Assembly: GCA_028283245.1 (NCBI GenBank)
Contig: JAPYNU010000006.1
Span: forward strand, 1,542 to 65,541
Source: Candidatus Aldehydirespirator catecholifindens
Lineage (GTDB): Bacteria > Actinomycetota > Acidimicrobiia > Acidimicrobiales > Aldehydirespiratoraceae
Length of the DNA stretch: 64,000 nt
Direction of reading: 5' to 3'
Shown here: piece by piece, positions 17,139-20,866 of the stretch
How positions within the stretch are numbered: the stretch's first letter is position 1
How the letters are laid out: every line of letters starts with the position of its first letter
The notes under the pieces: model-generated
Told to the model about the DNA's origin: nothing
Databases searched by the model: none
Seen by the model: the letters and a program-made list of their open reading frames with translations, nothing else
Made by a program: the position numbers and the translations under genes

Positions 17139-17181
17139 AGCTGCAAGCTATCTCCCCGTCGGCCCTAGAGCTTGCGCCCTA

Positions 17182-17197
17182 TGTTTCATGTGAAACA
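17182..17197. promoter_or_regulatory. parS: parS site 1 (TGTTTCATGTGAAACA)
   Basis: A 16-mer with one mismatch to the tGTTTCACGTGAAACa parS consensus. It is an inverted repeat ATGTTTCA-TG-TGAAACAT, 44 bp upstream of the parA start. Confidence 0.8.
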
Positions 17198-17198
17198 T

Positions 17199-20100
17199 GC
17201 GGATTCAACTACGACTATTCTCAGGGTTGGACGGAAGGTTCATTTGCAAGTTCGCGCCGCAGTGCGTCAAGATCACGCACTGGGACTCCAAGCACAGCAC
17301 CCACCGCCTCATCAAGTTGAGCGCGAATCGGACACTGCTGAGCTTGGTGCAGCGGCAACAGCGGCTCCCCGGCGATTGTGTCTAACAGGGACGCTAGGGA
17401 CTTGCGGCTTTCCGGCTCGAGGTCGGGCACTGCAAGGCTGCGCATGGCCTGAAGGCTTAAATTGGGACGAGACAGAGTGTTGGGAGATGCAACTGCGAGC
17501 ATGGCAAGAACCCCGAGAGTCGAGTTCAGGAAGACGGTCATAGCTTTGCTCCACTCGGGATTGAGTTCGCCGTCGCAAGGCGCGGCCGGCACCCAGCCTG
17601 AGCCCACAGTCGGCTCTTCGCAGCAAACCGCCAGCACCTTCAGAGTATTTAGACGCGGTTTTGCTGCTATCAGCAGGTGGGTCGCCTTGCTGTAGTACTT
17701 GTCTGCGAGATGCCCTTTACCGCTCTTGGCGTGGATATAGCTATCGGCGGTTGTGGCGAGGCTGACGACGCGATCCGTTTCGTTGTGCCACAACGCTTTA
17801 CGGCCAGTGCTATCGGCGCGACTGTGTCTAGTGAAAGCATCACGGATTCGTTGACCAGCTGGACCGATATCTGCTCTGCGGCCTAGTTTCACGAACTTTG
17901 TGCCTTTCCAAACACCATCACGCAGACAGCCCGCGACATCGGCCAGATACGCCGACGCGATTGTGAGCGGAGCCCATTCTCCCCCCACCATCCGCTTAGC
18001 GGGCCAAGTGCTAATCTGGGCTATGCCGTTGGCGATATCAGTTCCGTCGGCGGGTGTCCATTCCATCAGTGATCGGGCGGTACCTGCGATGTCGGCGACG
18101 CTGCGCGTGTTGCGCCACAGCCTGACGAACTTGGTGGGCGGCCTTAAGGCTGGTTCCTGCGGTGAGCGACGACACACTATGAGCGCCTCAGAAATGCTGG
18201 TGTTCTCTGAGAAGTTGATCCTGTGCGGGTCAAAGGATGCCACAACCCAATCAATGTGAAACCATTCCGCTAGTAGTTTGCGGGCATCTCTATTGGACGG
18301 AGCAGCAACACCGGCGAGTGGGTATACGAACGCCAACACCCCAGAGCCCATGTCGGCAAGGTGCTCGCCAAGGTCGACAAACATGGATCCTGCCGAGGAA
18401 CCATGACCAGCCCGCTTGTGGGTGATGACCTTCTCGCGTGCTTTGAGTTCCTTCTCCTCGGCTTTCGAGAACTGGTCATGACGCAGCGAGTCGCGAGTAT
18501 AAGGCGGGTTCATAATCACCATATGAAAAGTGTTGGGCTGCAGGGTGAGCGCCCTTTTGGTTTCGACTTGCGTCCCGTAGCTTTCTTCGCCGAAACGGAA
18601 CTGCCCAGTAGCCGCGTTCTCCAAGAGTTCCAGCGACCCGATTCGTGCATAGCGCTTGCGGTTCTTGACTTCAACGCCGAGCGGCAGCCTCGCGACGTTC
18701 ATTCGATCAAACGCTGTAGACGGCGACAGCAGACCAAGCGTGGTAGCAGCCATGTGGCAGGCGGTGGCGTTCACGTCAAGACCCCACAGCACCTCCTCAA
18801 TCAGCACAGAAGGTTCGCCATCCTGGAGGGCAGAGCCGCGCAGTTCGCGGATGCGTTCGCCGACAGCCATCAACAGGGTTCCCGTCCCGCAGGCCGGGTC
18901 AATGACCCTGAAGTCAGCCAGCTCTTCGGGTAGAGTATCGGCGTTGGGAAGTCCCAGCATTGCTAACAGCGTCGCTGATGAAACCGATGTGTAATAACTA
19001 CCGTCGTAGCGGGCGGTATCAAGCAATCGATGAAAAATGCTTCCCAGAAGGTCGTGTCCGGCTGCTGCAGCCGATGTCGCAGCTGCTACTCCAGCACGAG
19101 CCACGATCCTCACAATTCTGTTCCATTGAGATGTCAGCACGGGGGCATACAACGCCTCGCGAGCCAACTGGAACACTGGTCGGTAGTCCTTGGCAAGTAT
19201 GAGGCTCCAAGCATCAAGAAGGTCGAGTACCGGGTTGTCGCCAGCAATGCATTTCGTAGCGCGTCTCGGCGGCCACGTTCCCTCGTAGCTCCGCCCATTC
19301 GAATGGCGGGCATCAACTATGGGGCAGGTAGAGAGGTCCGTGAAAGCGGTATCAAGGCGAGCGTGGAACATGGCAGCTGCTGCCACAACCAGAAGTCCTC
19401 GCTTTGCGGCCGCTTCGGACTTGTCTTTTCCGCGGACTGAGGTCGGCAGATCCAGCGCTTCGGCCAGCGCTCCGCGGTCGACGGCTTGAAGGTGACTTAT
19501 GGCTGTGTTGAGTGCTTGATTGAGCCTTGCAGCTTCGGCTTCAGGACTGCCCAAATCGCTGGACAGCAGCAACAAGTGCCTTGCTAGATCAGAGACGCGG
19601 CCTACATGGTCCTGCTCATCATGGTCAAGCGATCGTGGATACACCGTCCTCCAGCGAAGGTTGCGGCAGGCCGACAGTGCCTCGGCTCTAAGACTTACCG
19701 GGTAGGCAACCGCCACGACTGCGTCACCGACGATGGTTCCGTCGACGATCTGCTCAGCCCGGCGCAGAGCATCCTTGACAGCCCCAGCCAGGGTCGCGCC
19801 TTTCTCGGCTTCGCAGTAAATGACGCCTTGATCCGTCTTGATCTTCAAATCAGGCCGCAAGCCTCCTGCCCCACCCAACGGCTCGGGTTCGGCATCAAGC
19901 CCAATGTCACGGAGCGCGTCAGCGAGTGCGCCATTGATCAATTGTTCATGTGATGCCTTTTGTGATGTCACGTTCGGCAGTCCTTGTCATTAGAATGGGG
20001 CTACAGAATGGGTTACGATGCCCATAGCGAGCAGTAACTTGACCAACCTTCACTCTAAAGCAGACGTGGGACGCGGCGGTGAATGCCGAGACTCTCTCTT

Positions 20101-20199
20101 TAAGATCAGAAAGATCAATAACCTCACTTTGGAGAGGATATGTGCAGCCAGTGCAACCGTTGGACGACTCGTTTGTCGATGCAGCCATCAGAGGTTCTC
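17199..20199. other. About 3.0-kb inserted segment between parA and rsmG, bounded by identical 26-mers (17173-17198 and 20200-20225)
   Basis: TGCGCCCTATGTTTCATGTGAAACAT occurs twice in direct orientation, with identity stopping sharply on both sides. In the canonical actinobacterial ori layout parA and rsmG are adjacent. Confidence 0.5.
17221..19971 (-). CDS. Large gamma-class N6-adenine DNA methyltransferase with ~300-aa N-terminal and ~400-aa C-terminal extra domains (Type IIG/IIL-like architecture, or an orphan MTase)
   Basis: Motif X-like LLGSIFHRLL...GSYYTS, motif I VIDPACGTGTLL, motif IV MNPPYT. 916 aa, GTG start. No adjacent R or S gene. Confidence 0.8.
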   Translation of the reverse strand: MTSQKASHEQLINGALADALRDIGLDAEPEPLGGAGGLRPDLKIKTDQGVIYCEAEKGATLAGAVKDALRRAEQIVDGTIVGDAVVAVAYPVSLRAEALSACRNLRWRTVYPRSLDHDEQDHVGRVSDLARHLLLLSSDLGSPEAEAARLNQALNTAISHLQAVDRGALAEALDLPTSVRGKDKSEAAAKRGLLVVAAAAMFHARLDTAFTDLSTCPIVDARHSNGRSYEGTWPPRRATKCIAGDNPVLDLLDAWSLILAKDYRPVFQLAREALYAPVLTSQWNRIVRIVARAGVAAATSAAAAGHDLLGSIFHRLLDTARYDGSYYTSVSSATLLAMLGLPNADTLPEELADFRVIDPACGTGTLLMAVGERIRELRGSALQDGEPSVLIEEVLWGLDVNATACHMAATTLGLLSPSTAFDRMNVARLPLGVEVKNRKRYARIGSLELLENAATGQFRFGEESYGTQVETKRALTLQPNTFHMVIMNPPYTRDSLRHDQFSKAEEKELKAREKVITHKRAGHGSSAGSMFVDLGEHLADMGSGVLAFVYPLAGVAAPSNRDARKLLAEWFHIDWVVASFDPHRINFSENTSISEALIVCRRSPQEPALRPPTKFVRLWRNTRSVADIAGTARSLMEWTPADGTDIANGIAQISTWPAKRMVGGEWAPLTIASAYLADVAGCLRDGVWKGTKFVKLGRRADIGPAGQRIRDAFTRHSRADSTGRKALWHNETDRVVSLATTADSYIHAKSGKGHLADKYYSKATHLLIAAKPRLNTLKVLAVCCEEPTVGSGWVPAAPCDGELNPEWSKAMTVFLNSTLGVLAMLAVASPNTLSRPNLSLQAMRSLAVPDLEPESRKSLASLLDTIAGEPLLPLHQAQQCPIRAQLDEAVGAVLGVPVRDLDALRRELANEPSVQP

Positions 20200-20208
20200 T
20201 GCGCCCTA

Positions 20209-20224
20209 TGTTTCATGTGAAACA
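20209..20224. promoter_or_regulatory. parS: parS site 2 (TGTTTCATGTGAAACA)
   Basis: The same 16-mer as site 1. The rsmG stop codon (20213-20215) lies inside it. Confidence 0.8.
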
Positions 20225-20866
20225 TCGAGGCTGGCCTAACGGTGCGCGGCGGCGGGCCGGGTGCCTGCGTGGAAACTCATCGGGTGATGCCTCTATTCGC
20301 TTAATCGCAAGGTAACGACTTTGTGGCGTCGTCCAAGTGTCCGCTGCTTCGCAGCCCAGCCGTTGGAGCGGAAGCTCCCGCCACTGGGTCAAAGTTGCCT
20401 CCGATACGGACACAACAAGAGCGCTGCCGATCTTTATCAGCGGCAGCGCACACTCAGCCAGTTCAGCCGGAGGCCCAAACGAACGCGCCACGGCAGCGTC
20501 GAAGCTCTCTCGATGAGAACGAGCCGTCTCTTCGATTGTTTCTTGCTTGACGGTTACCCGATTGGTTAACCCCGCGGCTGCTACCGCTCGTCGTGCCAGA
20601 TCACAGCGGCGAGCTTGTGCATCAACCAGCCACCAATTCGACTCCGGCATCTCAAGTGCCAGCAACACCCCTGGTAGACCAGCACCAGTTCCGCAGTCCA
20701 CGACTCGGCTAGGGGCCTTAGTCCTCCACTCGGGTAAAATGTAGCCAGTTGCGTGTGCGTAAAAGAACTCAATCGAATCTTGCCCGAGAGCACCAGCGAG
20801 ACGTGCCGCGGCCCATGATTGATCAATGCTCTGCAGTGTCTCAGGATCATGACCTGCCAGAGACAT
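20213..20866 (-). CDS. rsmG: 16S rRNA (guanine527-N7)-methyltransferase
   Basis: SAM motif VVDCGTGAGLPGVLLA and the C-terminal FPRR...PLG tail typical of GidB. Position between jag and parA. Confidence 0.9.
   Translation of the reverse strand: MSLAGHDPETLQSIDQSWAAARLAGALGQDSIEFFYAHATGYILPEWRTKAPSRVVDCGTGAGLPGVLLALEMPESNWWLVDAQARRCDLARRAVAAAGLTNRVTVKQETIEETARSHRESFDAAVARSFGPPAELAECALPLIKIGSALVVSVSEATLTQWRELPLQRLGCEAADTWTTPQSRYLAIKRIEASPDEFPRRHPARRRAPLGQPRCFT

What the first reader, a model, noticed from the sequence alone, without database searches (positions are those of the whole stretch)
17221..19971. Solitary 916-aa N6-adenine methyltransferase with MmeI-like domain order, sitting inside the ParB nucleation zone
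- MTase motifs: motif X-like LLGSIFHRLL..GSYYTS, motif I VIDPACGTGTLL and motif IV NPPYT occupy roughly residues 320-500.
- Extra domains: about 300 unassigned residues precede the motifs and about 400 follow them. That is the layout and size of single-chain Type IIG/IIL restriction-modification enzymes (nuclease, helical spacer, gamma-MTase, TRD).
- Possible nuclease: the N-terminus contains RPDLKIKTDQGVIYCEAEKG, which resembles a PD...(D/E)xK nuclease core but is not an exact ExK.
- Alternatives: it may be an active self-contained RM/defence enzyme or a degenerate, orphan MTase.
- Position: an adenine MTase expressed from between two parS sites, 4-6 kb from the candidate oriC, could also affect origin or segregation biology.
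Basis: partly seen in the sequence, partly recalled or inferred. Interest (0 to 1): 0.6.

Follow-up and report, generated by a model that had tools for sequence, protein, structure and literature searches.

The report
Mobile single-chain restriction-methylase inserted at parS
The 916-residue gene is an intact, horizontally acquired nuclease-plus-adenine-methylase fusion of a known general kind (Type IIG/IIL restriction-modification), and its 3-kb insertion duplicated what looks like the chromosome's only ParB-binding (parS) site.

Summary
**Observation: confirmed.**
- An uninterrupted 916-aa ORF lies at 17221-19971 (-).
- It carries gamma-class N6-adenine methylase motifs and sits between rsmG and parA, about 5.5 kb from dnaA-dnaN.

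**Interpretation: supported.**
- A confident AlphaFold model (pLDDT 86) matches the Type IIG enzyme BpuSI best, over its whole length.
- Residues 1-140, modelled alone, match PD-(D/E)XK nucleases (Hjc, RecU, HincII).
- The motif is E9...D41-x12-E54-x-E56. Across 67 family representatives the last position is K in 35 and E in 29. The family is therefore a genuine PD-(D/E)XK family, and this clade carries the BamHI-type ExE variant.
- All domains are under purifying selection (dN/dS 0.12-0.21).
- The methylase-TRD module also occurs fused to Mrr nuclease plus helicase (Type ISP layout) in relatives.
- No neighbouring gene is conserved across family members.

**New here.**
- The gene is a 3,027-bp insertion bracketed by a perfect 26-bp direct repeat that contains parS.
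- Most genus relatives searched have one parS; where located it lies at or beside rsmG-parA, and two relatives show no 3-kb insert there.
- These two copies are the only parS matches in this assembly.
- An ortholog elsewhere is flanked by a ~210-bp repeat.
- Two sister assemblies carry the same insertion with the gene broken by a 71-bp insert.

**Verdict.** A new member of a known kind. Enzymatic activity is untested.

The parts
17221..19971 (-). 916-aa single-chain nuclease-methylase gene (P0001), GTG start
   Evidence: start codon aligned with ATG of the G010 ortholog; AF2 pLDDT 86.3, pTM 0.88
19552..19971 (-). N-terminal PD-(D/E)XK nuclease-fold domain (residues 1-140; alpha-beta-beta-beta-alpha-beta core; E9, D41, E54-A-E56)
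   Evidence: secondary structure; Foldseek hits to Hjc, RecU, HincII and Cas4; conservation E9 58/62, D41 63/64, E54 66/67, position 56 K35/E29
19057..19551 (-). Helical linker (residues 141-305) with invariant AAKR, MFHxRLD and WPP motifs
   Evidence: corresponds to the helical spacer of BpuSI and MmeI
18157..19056 (-). Gamma-class N6-adenine methylase domain (residues 306-605): motif X 306-329, motif I DPACGTGTLLM 358-368 (nt 18868-18900), motif IV NPPYT 488-492 (nt 18496-18510)
   Evidence: most conserved domain; lowest dN/dS, 0.08-0.12
17422..18156 (-). Target-recognition-like domain (residues 606-850)
   Evidence: fold matches covering methylase plus TRD of CamA and M.BseCI (TM 0.59-0.68 normalised to the target chain) and BpuSI; more variable than the methylase domain
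17224..17421 (-). C-terminal helical bundle (residues 851-916)
   Evidence: helices 853-909 in the model; MmeI has an equivalent 826-919 bundle
17173..17198 (.). Left copy of the perfect 26-bp direct repeat TGCGCCCTATGTTTCATGTGAAACAT (holds parS 17182-17197), 35 bp upstream of the parA start
20200..20225 (.). Right copy of the 26-bp direct repeat (holds parS 20209-20224; overlaps the rsmG stop codon 20213-20215)
17199..20199 (.). Inserted DNA between the repeats (3,001 bp; start-to-start spacing of the repeats 3,027 bp); GC 0.578
   Evidence: the rsmG-parA junction is contiguous, without the insert, in G010 and G008
19972..20100 (-). About 125-130 nt of upstream sequence conserved with the G010 and L023 orthologs (presumed promoter/5' leader travelling with the gene)
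   Evidence: no sigma-70 consensus match
17572..17607 (-). 36-nt segment that is duplicated around a 35-nt filler (a 71-bp frameshifting insertion) in two sister assemblies

Best explanation
**What it is.** The gene encodes a self-contained, single-polypeptide restriction-modification enzyme of the Type IIG/IIL kind.

**Inferred mechanism (by analogy with BpuSI and MmeI).**
- The C-terminal target-recognition domain and the gamma-class methylase domain clamp a specific DNA sequence.
- They flip an adenine and methylate it with SAM (NPPY catalytic loop).
- The N-terminal PD-(D/E)XK domain is tethered through a helical spacer. It cuts unmodified foreign DNA at a distance, using an E9/D41/E54/E56 metal-binding site of the BamHI type (ExE instead of ExK).

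**How it got here.**
- It is a mobile accessory gene.
- A 3-kb unit (the gene plus about 130 nt of leader) inserted at the rsmG-parA junction.
- The insertion carried a 26-bp target duplication. That duplicated the parS centromere site, the only one detected in this assembly.

**Shown versus inferred.**
- Shown: architecture, fold, motif conservation, purifying selection, the insertion and its duplication.
- Inferred: methylation, cleavage, recognition sequence and defence phenotype.
For: **Architecture and fold**
- Full-length AF2 model: pLDDT 86, pTM 0.88.
- Best PDB match is BpuSI, a Type IIG enzyme, at E 5e-17. DrdV (Type IIL), PglX, CamA and M.BseCI also match.
- The N-terminal domain alone matches PD-(D/E)XK nucleases, with the acidic residues on the canonical elements: E9 on helix 1, D41 at the start of strand 2, E54/E56 on strand 3.

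**Catalytic residues across the family**
- Across 67 representatives (each stands for a 50%-identity cluster), E9, D41 and E54 are nearly invariant. Position 56 is K in 35 and E in 29.
- E-D-ExE is the active-site set of BamHI and OkrAI (PMC3025578).
- Methylase motifs are invariant.

**Selection**
- dN/dS is 0.12-0.18 overall and 0.18-0.21 in the nuclease domain, against two orthologs.

**Modularity and context**
- Residues ~240-914 are 30-36% identical to the methylase-TRD part of 1,470-1,500-aa Mrr_cat_2 + ResIII + Helicase_C proteins (Type ISP layout). The module also occurs alone.
- No neighbour is conserved across nine loci; several lie in defence-type islands.

**Mobility**
- Close orthologs occur in 3 of 25 genus genomes.
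- The gene is 87.7% identical in nucleotides to the G010 copy, against 68% for the flanking core genes.
- A 26-bp perfect direct repeat flanks the insert.
- The rsmG-parA junction is contiguous in G010, with a single parS, and in G008.
- The L023 ortholog is flanked by a ~210-bp, 96% identical direct repeat.
- RM genes are known to insert with long target duplications (PMC2853133).
Against: - No enzymatic or methylome data exist.
- The last catalytic residue is E, not K. K-to-E or E-to-K swaps severely impair EcoRV, EcoRI and BamHI (PMC3025578), so the ExE clade could have reduced or no nuclease activity.
- Foldseek E-values for the isolated N-terminal domain are only ~1e-3.
- No Pfam nuclease model and no PDB sequence profile hits it.
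- The C-terminal half is fairly conserved across the family (pairwise 43-44%). That is less variable than many TRDs.
- Two sister assemblies carry a disrupted copy, so the gene is dispensable.
- The 26-bp repeat is shorter than the >30-bp criterion of Furuta et al..
Confidence: 0.68

Rival explanations
1. It is a solitary (orphan) N6-adenine DNA methylase. The N-terminal PD-(D/E)XK-fold domain has lost cleavage activity in the ExE clade. That domain now serves only DNA binding or regulation, and the gene acts epigenetically or as a decoy against other restriction systems.
For: - Methylase motifs are intact and are the most conserved part.
- K is replaced by E at the last catalytic position. 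Such swaps cripple EcoRV and EcoRI.
- The strongest fold matches after BpuSI are the orphan methylase CamA and M.BseCI.
- The methylase-TRD module exists without any N-terminal domain in 650-750-aa relatives.
Against: - E9, D41 and E54 are nearly invariant, and E56 is kept in at least 90% of the close clade.
- Nuclease-domain dN/dS is 0.18-0.21. A dead domain would not keep four acidic residues.
- BamHI and OkrAI cut with exactly this residue set.
- The patchy, mobile, defence-island distribution is typical of restriction genes.
Confidence: 0.24
2. It is the methylase component of a multi-gene defence system (BREX PglX-like, DISARM DrmMI-like or MADS), separated from its partners.
For: Weak local hits to PglX, DrmMI and mad2 models over the SAM-binding motif. 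Fold similarity to PglX/BrxX.
Against: - Scores are far below the family cut-offs (15-22 bits against 400-900).
- No brx, pgl or drm genes, and no other recurrent partner, appear in nine contexts.
- The protein is about 300 residues shorter than PglX and carries its own nuclease domain.
Confidence: 0.03
3. The gene has been recruited to origin or segregation biology, for example methylation-dependent control of oriC, DnaA or ParB loading.
For: - It lies between two parS copies, 5.5 kb from the dnaA-dnaN gap.
- It is co-oriented with rsmG and parAB.
- One distant family member (L025) also lies about 4.5 kb from dnaA.
Against: - It is absent from 22 of 25 genus genomes.
- Its orthologs sit at unrelated loci.
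- It is disrupted by a 71-bp insertion in two sister assemblies with the same locus.
- The second parS is explained by the target duplication.
Confidence: 0.03

Closest known systems
RM.BpuSI (Type IIG/IIS, PDB 3S1S; PMC3185434)
   Same: - Best structural match over the whole chain (E 5e-17).
- Same order: N-terminal PD-(D/E)XK nuclease, helical bundle, M.TaqI-like gamma N6A methylase, TRD.
- Similar size (BpuSI 878 aa by the literature; 870 residues in the PDB chain).
   Different: - Only 13% identity, and the domains are arranged differently (TM 0.36).
- BpuSI has PD-x15-ExK; here the motif is D-x12-ExE.
- BpuSI was cloned together with two separate methylase genes, M1 and M2 (section heading). 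This gene has none.
MmeI / DrdV family (Type IIL; PMC4833311, PDB 7LO5)
   Same: - Solitary single-chain enzyme of ~920 aa.
- Five domains with almost the same limits.
- DrdV is matched structurally at E ~1e-11.
   Different: - Pfam MmeI_N, MmeI_hel, MmeI_TRD and MmeI_C models do not hit.
- MmeI_Mtase scores 18.1 bits against a cut-off of 27.
- The catalytic motif of MmeI is D70-x9-E80-x-K82.
Type ISP-like enzymes (Mrr nuclease + SF2 helicase + methylase + TRD; LlaGI/LlaBIII architecture)
   Same: Closest by sequence. Residues ~240-914 are 30-36% identical to the methylase-TRD half of 1,470-1,500-aa proteins with Mrr_cat_2, ResIII and Helicase_C. Two such paralogs occur in this genome.
   Different: No helicase and no Mrr domain. 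A different, 140-residue PD-(D/E)XK domain plus a helical linker takes their place.
BamHI / OkrAI active site
   Same: Four acidic catalytic residues, E...D...E-x-E (BamHI E77/D94/E111/E113; here E9/D41/E54/E56). This configuration is rare among restriction enzymes (PMC3025578).
   Different: No sequence or domain relationship beyond the common fold. BamHI is a Type IIP homodimer without a methylase.
RM gene insertion with long target duplication (Furuta et al. 2010, PMC2853133)
   Same: - An RM-type gene with no integrase or transposase.
- It is flanked by direct repeats whose sequence aligns with a single copy in the empty site of a relative.
- Repeat lengths vary: 26 bp here, ~210 bp in L023.
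   Different: - The 26-bp repeat is below their 30-bp cut-off.
- The target is the chromosomal parS palindrome.
- The phylum (Acidimicrobiia) is not among their cases.

Membership tests
Type IIG/IIC single-chain RM enzymes (architectural class) | Endonuclease domain and methylase domain in one polypeptide | tested here: met
   PD-(D/E)XK fold at residues 1-140 and N6_Mtase motifs at 306-605. Whole-chain match to BpuSI.
Type IIG/IIC single-chain RM enzymes (architectural class) | Complete catalytic residues in the nuclease domain | tested here: inconclusive
   E9, D41 and E54 are present and nearly invariant. The last residue is E56 rather than K: a BamHI-type variant found in 29 of 67 family representatives. 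Activity cannot be read from sequence.
Type IIG/IIC single-chain RM enzymes (architectural class) | Gamma-class N6-adenine methylase with TRD C-terminal to it | tested here: met
   Motif order is X-I-IV with NPPY. Methylase plus TRD fold matches to CamA (TM 0.62-0.68 normalised to the target chain; cognate-DNA complexes of M.BseCI 0.59-0.61).
Type IIG/IIC single-chain RM enzymes (architectural class) | SAM-stimulated site-specific cleavage and methylation | not testable with these tools
MmeI family (Type IIL; Pfam MmeI_N/hel/Mtase/TRD/C) | Matches to the MmeI domain models above Pfam thresholds | tested here: not met
   Only MmeI_Mtase hits, at 18.1 bits against a cut-off of 27. No N, hel, TRD or C hits even at E<=1.
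Eco57I-type methylase (PF07669) | Score above the gathering threshold | tested here: not met
   21.6 bits against 25.3. A few close homologs carry a precomputed PF07669 hit, so the family is peripheral to it.
N6_Mtase (PF02384) | Score above the gathering threshold | tested here: met
   24.3 bits against 20.4, residues 307-411.
BREX PglX / DISARM DrmMI / MADS2 | Family-level score and the partner genes of the system | tested here: not met
   11-22 bits against cut-offs of 400-900. No partner genes in the window or in eight other loci.
Type ISP | Mrr-type nuclease plus SF2 helicase N-terminal to the methylase-TRD | tested here: not met
   No helicase or Mrr hit in P0001. These are present in its 1,470-1,709-aa relatives.
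Insertion with long target duplication (Furuta et al. 2010) | Direct repeats flank the RM insert and align to one copy in an empty site; no mobility gene; repeat >30 bp | tested here: inconclusive
   The repeats and the empty site are shown, and no integrase or transposase lies in the 3-kb insert. The repeat is 26 bp, below their cut-off. The L023 ortholog's repeat is ~210 bp.

The most novel reading that the evidence does not exclude
**Proposal.** This enzyme family promotes its own gene's movement, and does so with long, variable target duplications.

**Three events of the same unusual kind are linked to the gene:**
- the 26-bp duplication at parS here;
- the ~210-bp duplication around the L023 ortholog;
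- a 36-bp duplication around a 35-nt filler inside the gene in sister assemblies.

All three occur in genomes of this group, and the one genome tested (this one) has no Ku homolog. Distant, staggered cleavage by the enzyme itself could create the gapped targets.

**Side effect.** The detected centromere site was doubled. ParB would now load on both sides of a restriction gene.
Probability: 0.1. Interest if true: 0.7.

Novelty: new member of a known kind. Interest (0 to 1): 0.4.

Why it matters
**A large unnamed enzyme family.** The family has at least 2,291 50%-identity clusters at E<=0.001. It is annotated only as 'N-6 DNA methylase' or 'hypothetical protein', and no library model recognises its nuclease domain.
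- Recognising it as a Type IIG-like family would improve defence-island annotation in Acidimicrobiia and in other phyla.
- Its members are candidate new restriction specificities.
- The K/E split at the last catalytic position within one homologous family is a natural experiment. It bears on how PD-(D/E)XK sites tolerate that change.

**A clear insertion example.** The insertion shows an RM-type gene landing with a target duplication on what looks like the chromosome's only parS. It explains the 'two parS' pattern without invoking any segregation function.

**A natural knockout.** The sister assemblies with a broken copy could be used to assign the methylation motif.

Tried and rejected
**Searches that found nothing**
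- Sequence search of PDB with the whole protein gave only marginal PglX/BrxX hits over motif I.
- A profile of the N-terminal 215 residues found nothing in PDB at E<=10.
- Pfam, NCBIfam and PADLOC give no nuclease domain.
- The promoter and terminator scan found no sigma-70-like site and no terminator around the gene.
- No direct repeats of at least 16 nt flank the G010 copy (L008), the G020 copy (L009) or the L024 copy.
- The 35-nt filler of the sister-assembly insertion has no source in this genome.

**Ideas rejected**
- The 80-aa ORF 19946-20188 (-), upstream of and overlapping the start, was considered as a controller protein. It was rejected because the region carries indels not divisible by three in the orthologous loci (2, 1 and 12 nt against G010), and it has no Pfam hit.
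- An NHEJ origin of the duplications was considered. No Ku homolog is present in the assembly.
- Membership of a multi-gene system was rejected after nine contexts showed no recurrent neighbour.

I could not test expression, population polymorphism of the insertion, or methylation from reads.
Full report
**1. The observation**

The ORF at 17221-19971 on the minus strand is real: 916 codons, a GTG start and no internal stop.
- The start is supported by the ortholog in genome G010, which has ATG at the same codon and the same first residues.
  - motif X, HDLLGSIFHRLL...DGSYYTS (306-329);
  - motif I, DPACGTGTLLM (358-368);
  - motif IV, NPPYT (488-492).
- The order X-I-IV defines a gamma-class amino-methylase.
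- Library support is modest but consistent. Pfam N6_Mtase scores 24.3 bits against a cut-off of 20.4. PADLOC Type II methylase gives 2.5e-16. PglX, Eco57I and MmeI_Mtase models give only weak local hits.
- The neighbours are housekeeping genes of the origin region: dnaA, yidC, jag and rsmG on one side, parA and parB on the other.
- With V1 as residue 1, the N-terminal motif is D41...E54-A55-E56-K57.

**2. What the protein is**

*Family size and conservation.*
- The protein belongs to a large, unnamed family of ~900-930-aa proteins that align over their whole length.
  - More than 2,500 hits appeared among the first 8,000 candidates of the 90% clusters.
  - There are 2,291 clusters at 50% identity with E<=0.001, and 524 with E<=1e-30.
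- Conservation covers the whole chain. The methylase domain is the most conserved. The N-terminal and C-terminal regions are more variable.

*Whole-chain structure.*
- An AlphaFold2 model built on 35 homologs is confident: pLDDT 86.3, pTM 0.88.
- Against the PDB, its best match is the Type IIG enzyme RM.BpuSI (3S1S, E 5e-17, alignment across the whole chain).
- The next matches are the methylase-TRD proteins CamA and M.BseCI, then PglX/BrxX, then the MmeI-family Type IIL enzyme DrdV.
- BpuSI is described as an N-terminal PD-x15-ExK nuclease, a helical bundle, an M.TaqI-like methylase and a TRD (PMC3185434).
- MmeI's domain limits are 1-155, 156-300, 301-620, 621-825 and 826-919 (PMC4833311).
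- Approximate limits here, which I drew from the model's secondary structure and these matches, are 1-140, 141-305, 306-605, 606-850 and 851-916. The 'MmeI-like domain order and size' is therefore correct.

**3. The nuclease question**

- The model's first 140 residues form helix-strand-strand-strand-helix-strand. E9 lies on the first helix, D41 at the start of strand 2, and E54 and E56 on strand 3.
- Modelled alone, residues 1-215 give pLDDT 85.5. The top PDB matches are all PD-(D/E)XK nucleases:
  - archaeal Hjc resolvases (E 1e-3 to 7e-3, TM 0.51-0.57 normalised to the target chain);
  - RecU/PrfA;
  - HincII;
  - Cas4-like proteins, the R2 element's endonuclease and viral cap-snatching endonucleases.
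- The E-values are weak, and neither Pfam nor a PDB sequence profile detects the domain.
- Conservation settles what the motif is. In 67 representatives, E9 is kept in 58 of 62, D41 in 63 of 64 and E54 in 66 of 67. The last position is K in 35, E in 29 and another residue in 3.
- The family thus has the canonical E...D-x12-E-x-K signature. A large clade, including this protein, has ExE.
- ExE with a fourth upstream glutamate is the active-site set of BamHI (E77/D94/E111/E113) and OkrAI. That paper describes it as rare among restriction enzymes (PMC3025578).
- The same paper notes that experimental K/E swaps cripple EcoRV, EcoRI and BamHI. Activity of the ExE clade is therefore plausible but not certain.
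- Evidence against decay:
  - E56 is kept in at least 90% of the close clade.
  - The nuclease domain's dN/dS against two orthologs is 0.18-0.21, close to the 0.12-0.18 of the whole gene.

**4. Modularity and context**

- Residues ~240-914 (end of the linker, methylase, TRD and C-terminal bundle) recur at 30-36% identity in other proteins:
  - 1,470-1,500-aa proteins whose N-terminal ~780 residues carry Mrr_cat_2, ResIII/DEAD and Helicase_C, which is the Type ISP layout;
  - ~1,130-1,190-aa proteins with helicase remnants;
  - 650-800-aa proteins without a recognised N-terminal domain.
- This genome itself has two such long paralogs:
  - one intact gene of 1,709 aa on contig C80;
  - one on C67 that appears split into 1,352 and 198 aa.
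- The same methylase-TRD module therefore pairs with different nuclease 'heads', as expected of restriction enzymes.
- Nine gene neighbourhoods of family members share no partner gene.
  - Some members sit among housekeeping genes.
  - Others sit beside HNH, PemK, Abi_2, AIPR, CHAT-TPR, FRG or other methylase genes.
- This fits a self-contained unit. It argues against a BREX, DISARM or MADS component, whose models score far below threshold.

**5. How the gene came to lie between two parS sites**

*The repeat and the empty site.*
- A perfect 26-nt direct repeat, TGCGCCCTATGTTTCATGTGAAACAT, lies at 17173-17198 and 20200-20225. The sequences on either side of each copy are unrelated.
- Each copy contains the parS-like palindrome. 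The right copy also holds the rsmG stop codon.
- Joining the outer flanks in silico gives a sequence that matches G010, a genome of the same genus, contiguously at 68% identity.
  - There, rsmG, one parS and parA follow each other without the 3-kb insert.
  - G008 is likewise contiguous.

*parS counts.*
- In the whole 2.59-Mb assembly (93% complete), these two copies are the only matches to parS with up to two mismatches. They are also the only matches to the 26-mer with up to three mismatches.
- Among the 15 same-genus genomes searched, nine have exactly one parS (up to one mismatch), one has two, and five have none. In seven of these (G005, G007, G008, G010, G012, G013, G015) the site lies within a few hundred bases of the parA/rsmG DNA match.
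- The simplest reading is a 3,001-bp insertion at the single centromere site, with a 26-bp target duplication.

*Evidence for horizontal acquisition.*
- Close orthologs occur in only 3 of 25 genus genomes, and at different loci.
- The gene is 87.7% identical in nucleotides to the G010 copy, while the flanking core genes are 68% identical.
- Its GC3 is 0.61, against 0.50-0.56 for its neighbours.

*What travels with the gene, and the precedent.*
- Homology among the three orthologous loci runs from about 130 nt upstream of the start to about 22 nt past the stop. That is the unit that moves.
- The ortholog in L023 is itself flanked by a ~210-nt direct repeat, 96% identical and with sharp ends.
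[quoted passage not shown] The present 26 bp is just under that study's 30-bp cut-off.

**6. Population variation**

- Two other assemblies of the same or a very close population carry the same insertion at the rsmG-parA junction: GCA_028283225.1 and JGI metagenome 3300009883.
- For GCA_028283225.1, the DNA alignment shows no difference from the window across either repeat position.
- In them the gene is called as 834 plus 106 aa.
- Aligned to the window, the GCA_028283225.1 copy differs by six substitutions within the gene and a 71-bp insertion at about 17608 (residue ~798).
- That insertion consists of a 35-nt filler of unknown origin plus a direct duplication of the preceding 36 nt.
- It shifts the frame before the conserved end of the TRD and the C-terminal bundle.
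- Because recognition is shared by both activities in this architecture, such a lesion should remove cutting and methylation together (inference).
- It shows that the gene is dispensable, and it provides a natural knockout for methylome comparison.

**7. Verdict**

This is a Type IIG/IIL-like single-chain nuclease-methylase with an intact, selected, BamHI-type variant nuclease site.
- It is not a sequence member of the MmeI family, and it is peripheral to the Eco57I family. By sequence its methylase-TRD half is closest to uncharacterised Type ISP-like enzymes.
- The idea that its position serves origin or segregation biology is not supported. The position and the second parS are consequences of the insertion.
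- I rate it a new member of a known kind, with moderate interest. The interest comes from three things:
  - the unannotated nuclease domain;
  - the K/E dimorphism within one family;
  - the clean example of target duplication at a sole centromere site.

Noticed in passing
window 17572-17607; L031 6001-8822; L032 6001-8822: Two sister assemblies (GCA_028283225.1; JGI 3300009883) have the same parS-flanked insertion. In them the gene is frameshifted by a 71-bp insertion: a 35-nt filler plus a 36-nt direct duplication. The filler has no match in this genome.
   Followed up: yes
L023 6483-6695 and 9979-10191: The 82%-identical ortholog in another genome is flanked by a ~210-nt direct repeat (96% identical, sharp ends). 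The right copy lies in a truncated DUF4143 gene. [quoted passage not shown]
   Followed up: partly
own genome G000:C80:28996-34125 (L028 497-5626) and G000:C67 (L029 25-4083, 4091-4687): Two Type ISP-like paralogs (Mrr_cat_2 + ResIII helicase + the same methylase-TRD module). One is intact at 1,709 aa. The other appears split into 1,352 + 198 aa, possibly by a frameshift.
   Followed up: partly
whole assembly G000; genus relatives G003-G015: The genus appears to use a single chromosomal parS at or beside the rsmG-parA junction: nine of the 15 same-genus genomes searched have exactly one match (G013 has two, 54 bp apart; five have none at one mismatch or fewer). In this genome the parS overlaps the rsmG stop codon.
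   Followed up: partly
window 20305-20366 (inside rsmG): Nine substitutions relative to the sister assembly L031 cluster within 62 nt of rsmG, while the neighbouring 3 kb differ at only ~6 positions. This may be a short recombination tract.
   Followed up: no
L001 4706-5902; L023 9973-10329; L029 4754-6088: AAA_14/DUF4143 ATPase genes recur next to these methylase-family genes in three unrelated loci. In L023 one was the insertion target.
   Followed up: no
L025 1097-2521 and 7001-9802: A distant family member (41% identical to P0001 in alignment A1) in another genome also lies about 4.5 kb from dnaA. It sits next to an N6_N4_Mtase-Mrr_cat fusion and an FRG-domain gene.
   Followed up: no
window 19946-20188 (-): An 80-aa ORF upstream of, and overlapping, the methylase start. 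It has no Pfam hit, and its frame is not conserved in the orthologous loci. Probably not a gene.
   Followed up: yes
L030 (Sulfuricystis multivorans plasmid pSTJ1, NZ_AP018719.1 29277-32192): A full-length family member (28% identity) sits on a mobilizable plasmid and is annotated 'hypothetical protein'. It follows a PRTRC gene cluster and a small N-6 DNA methylase gene.
   Followed up: no
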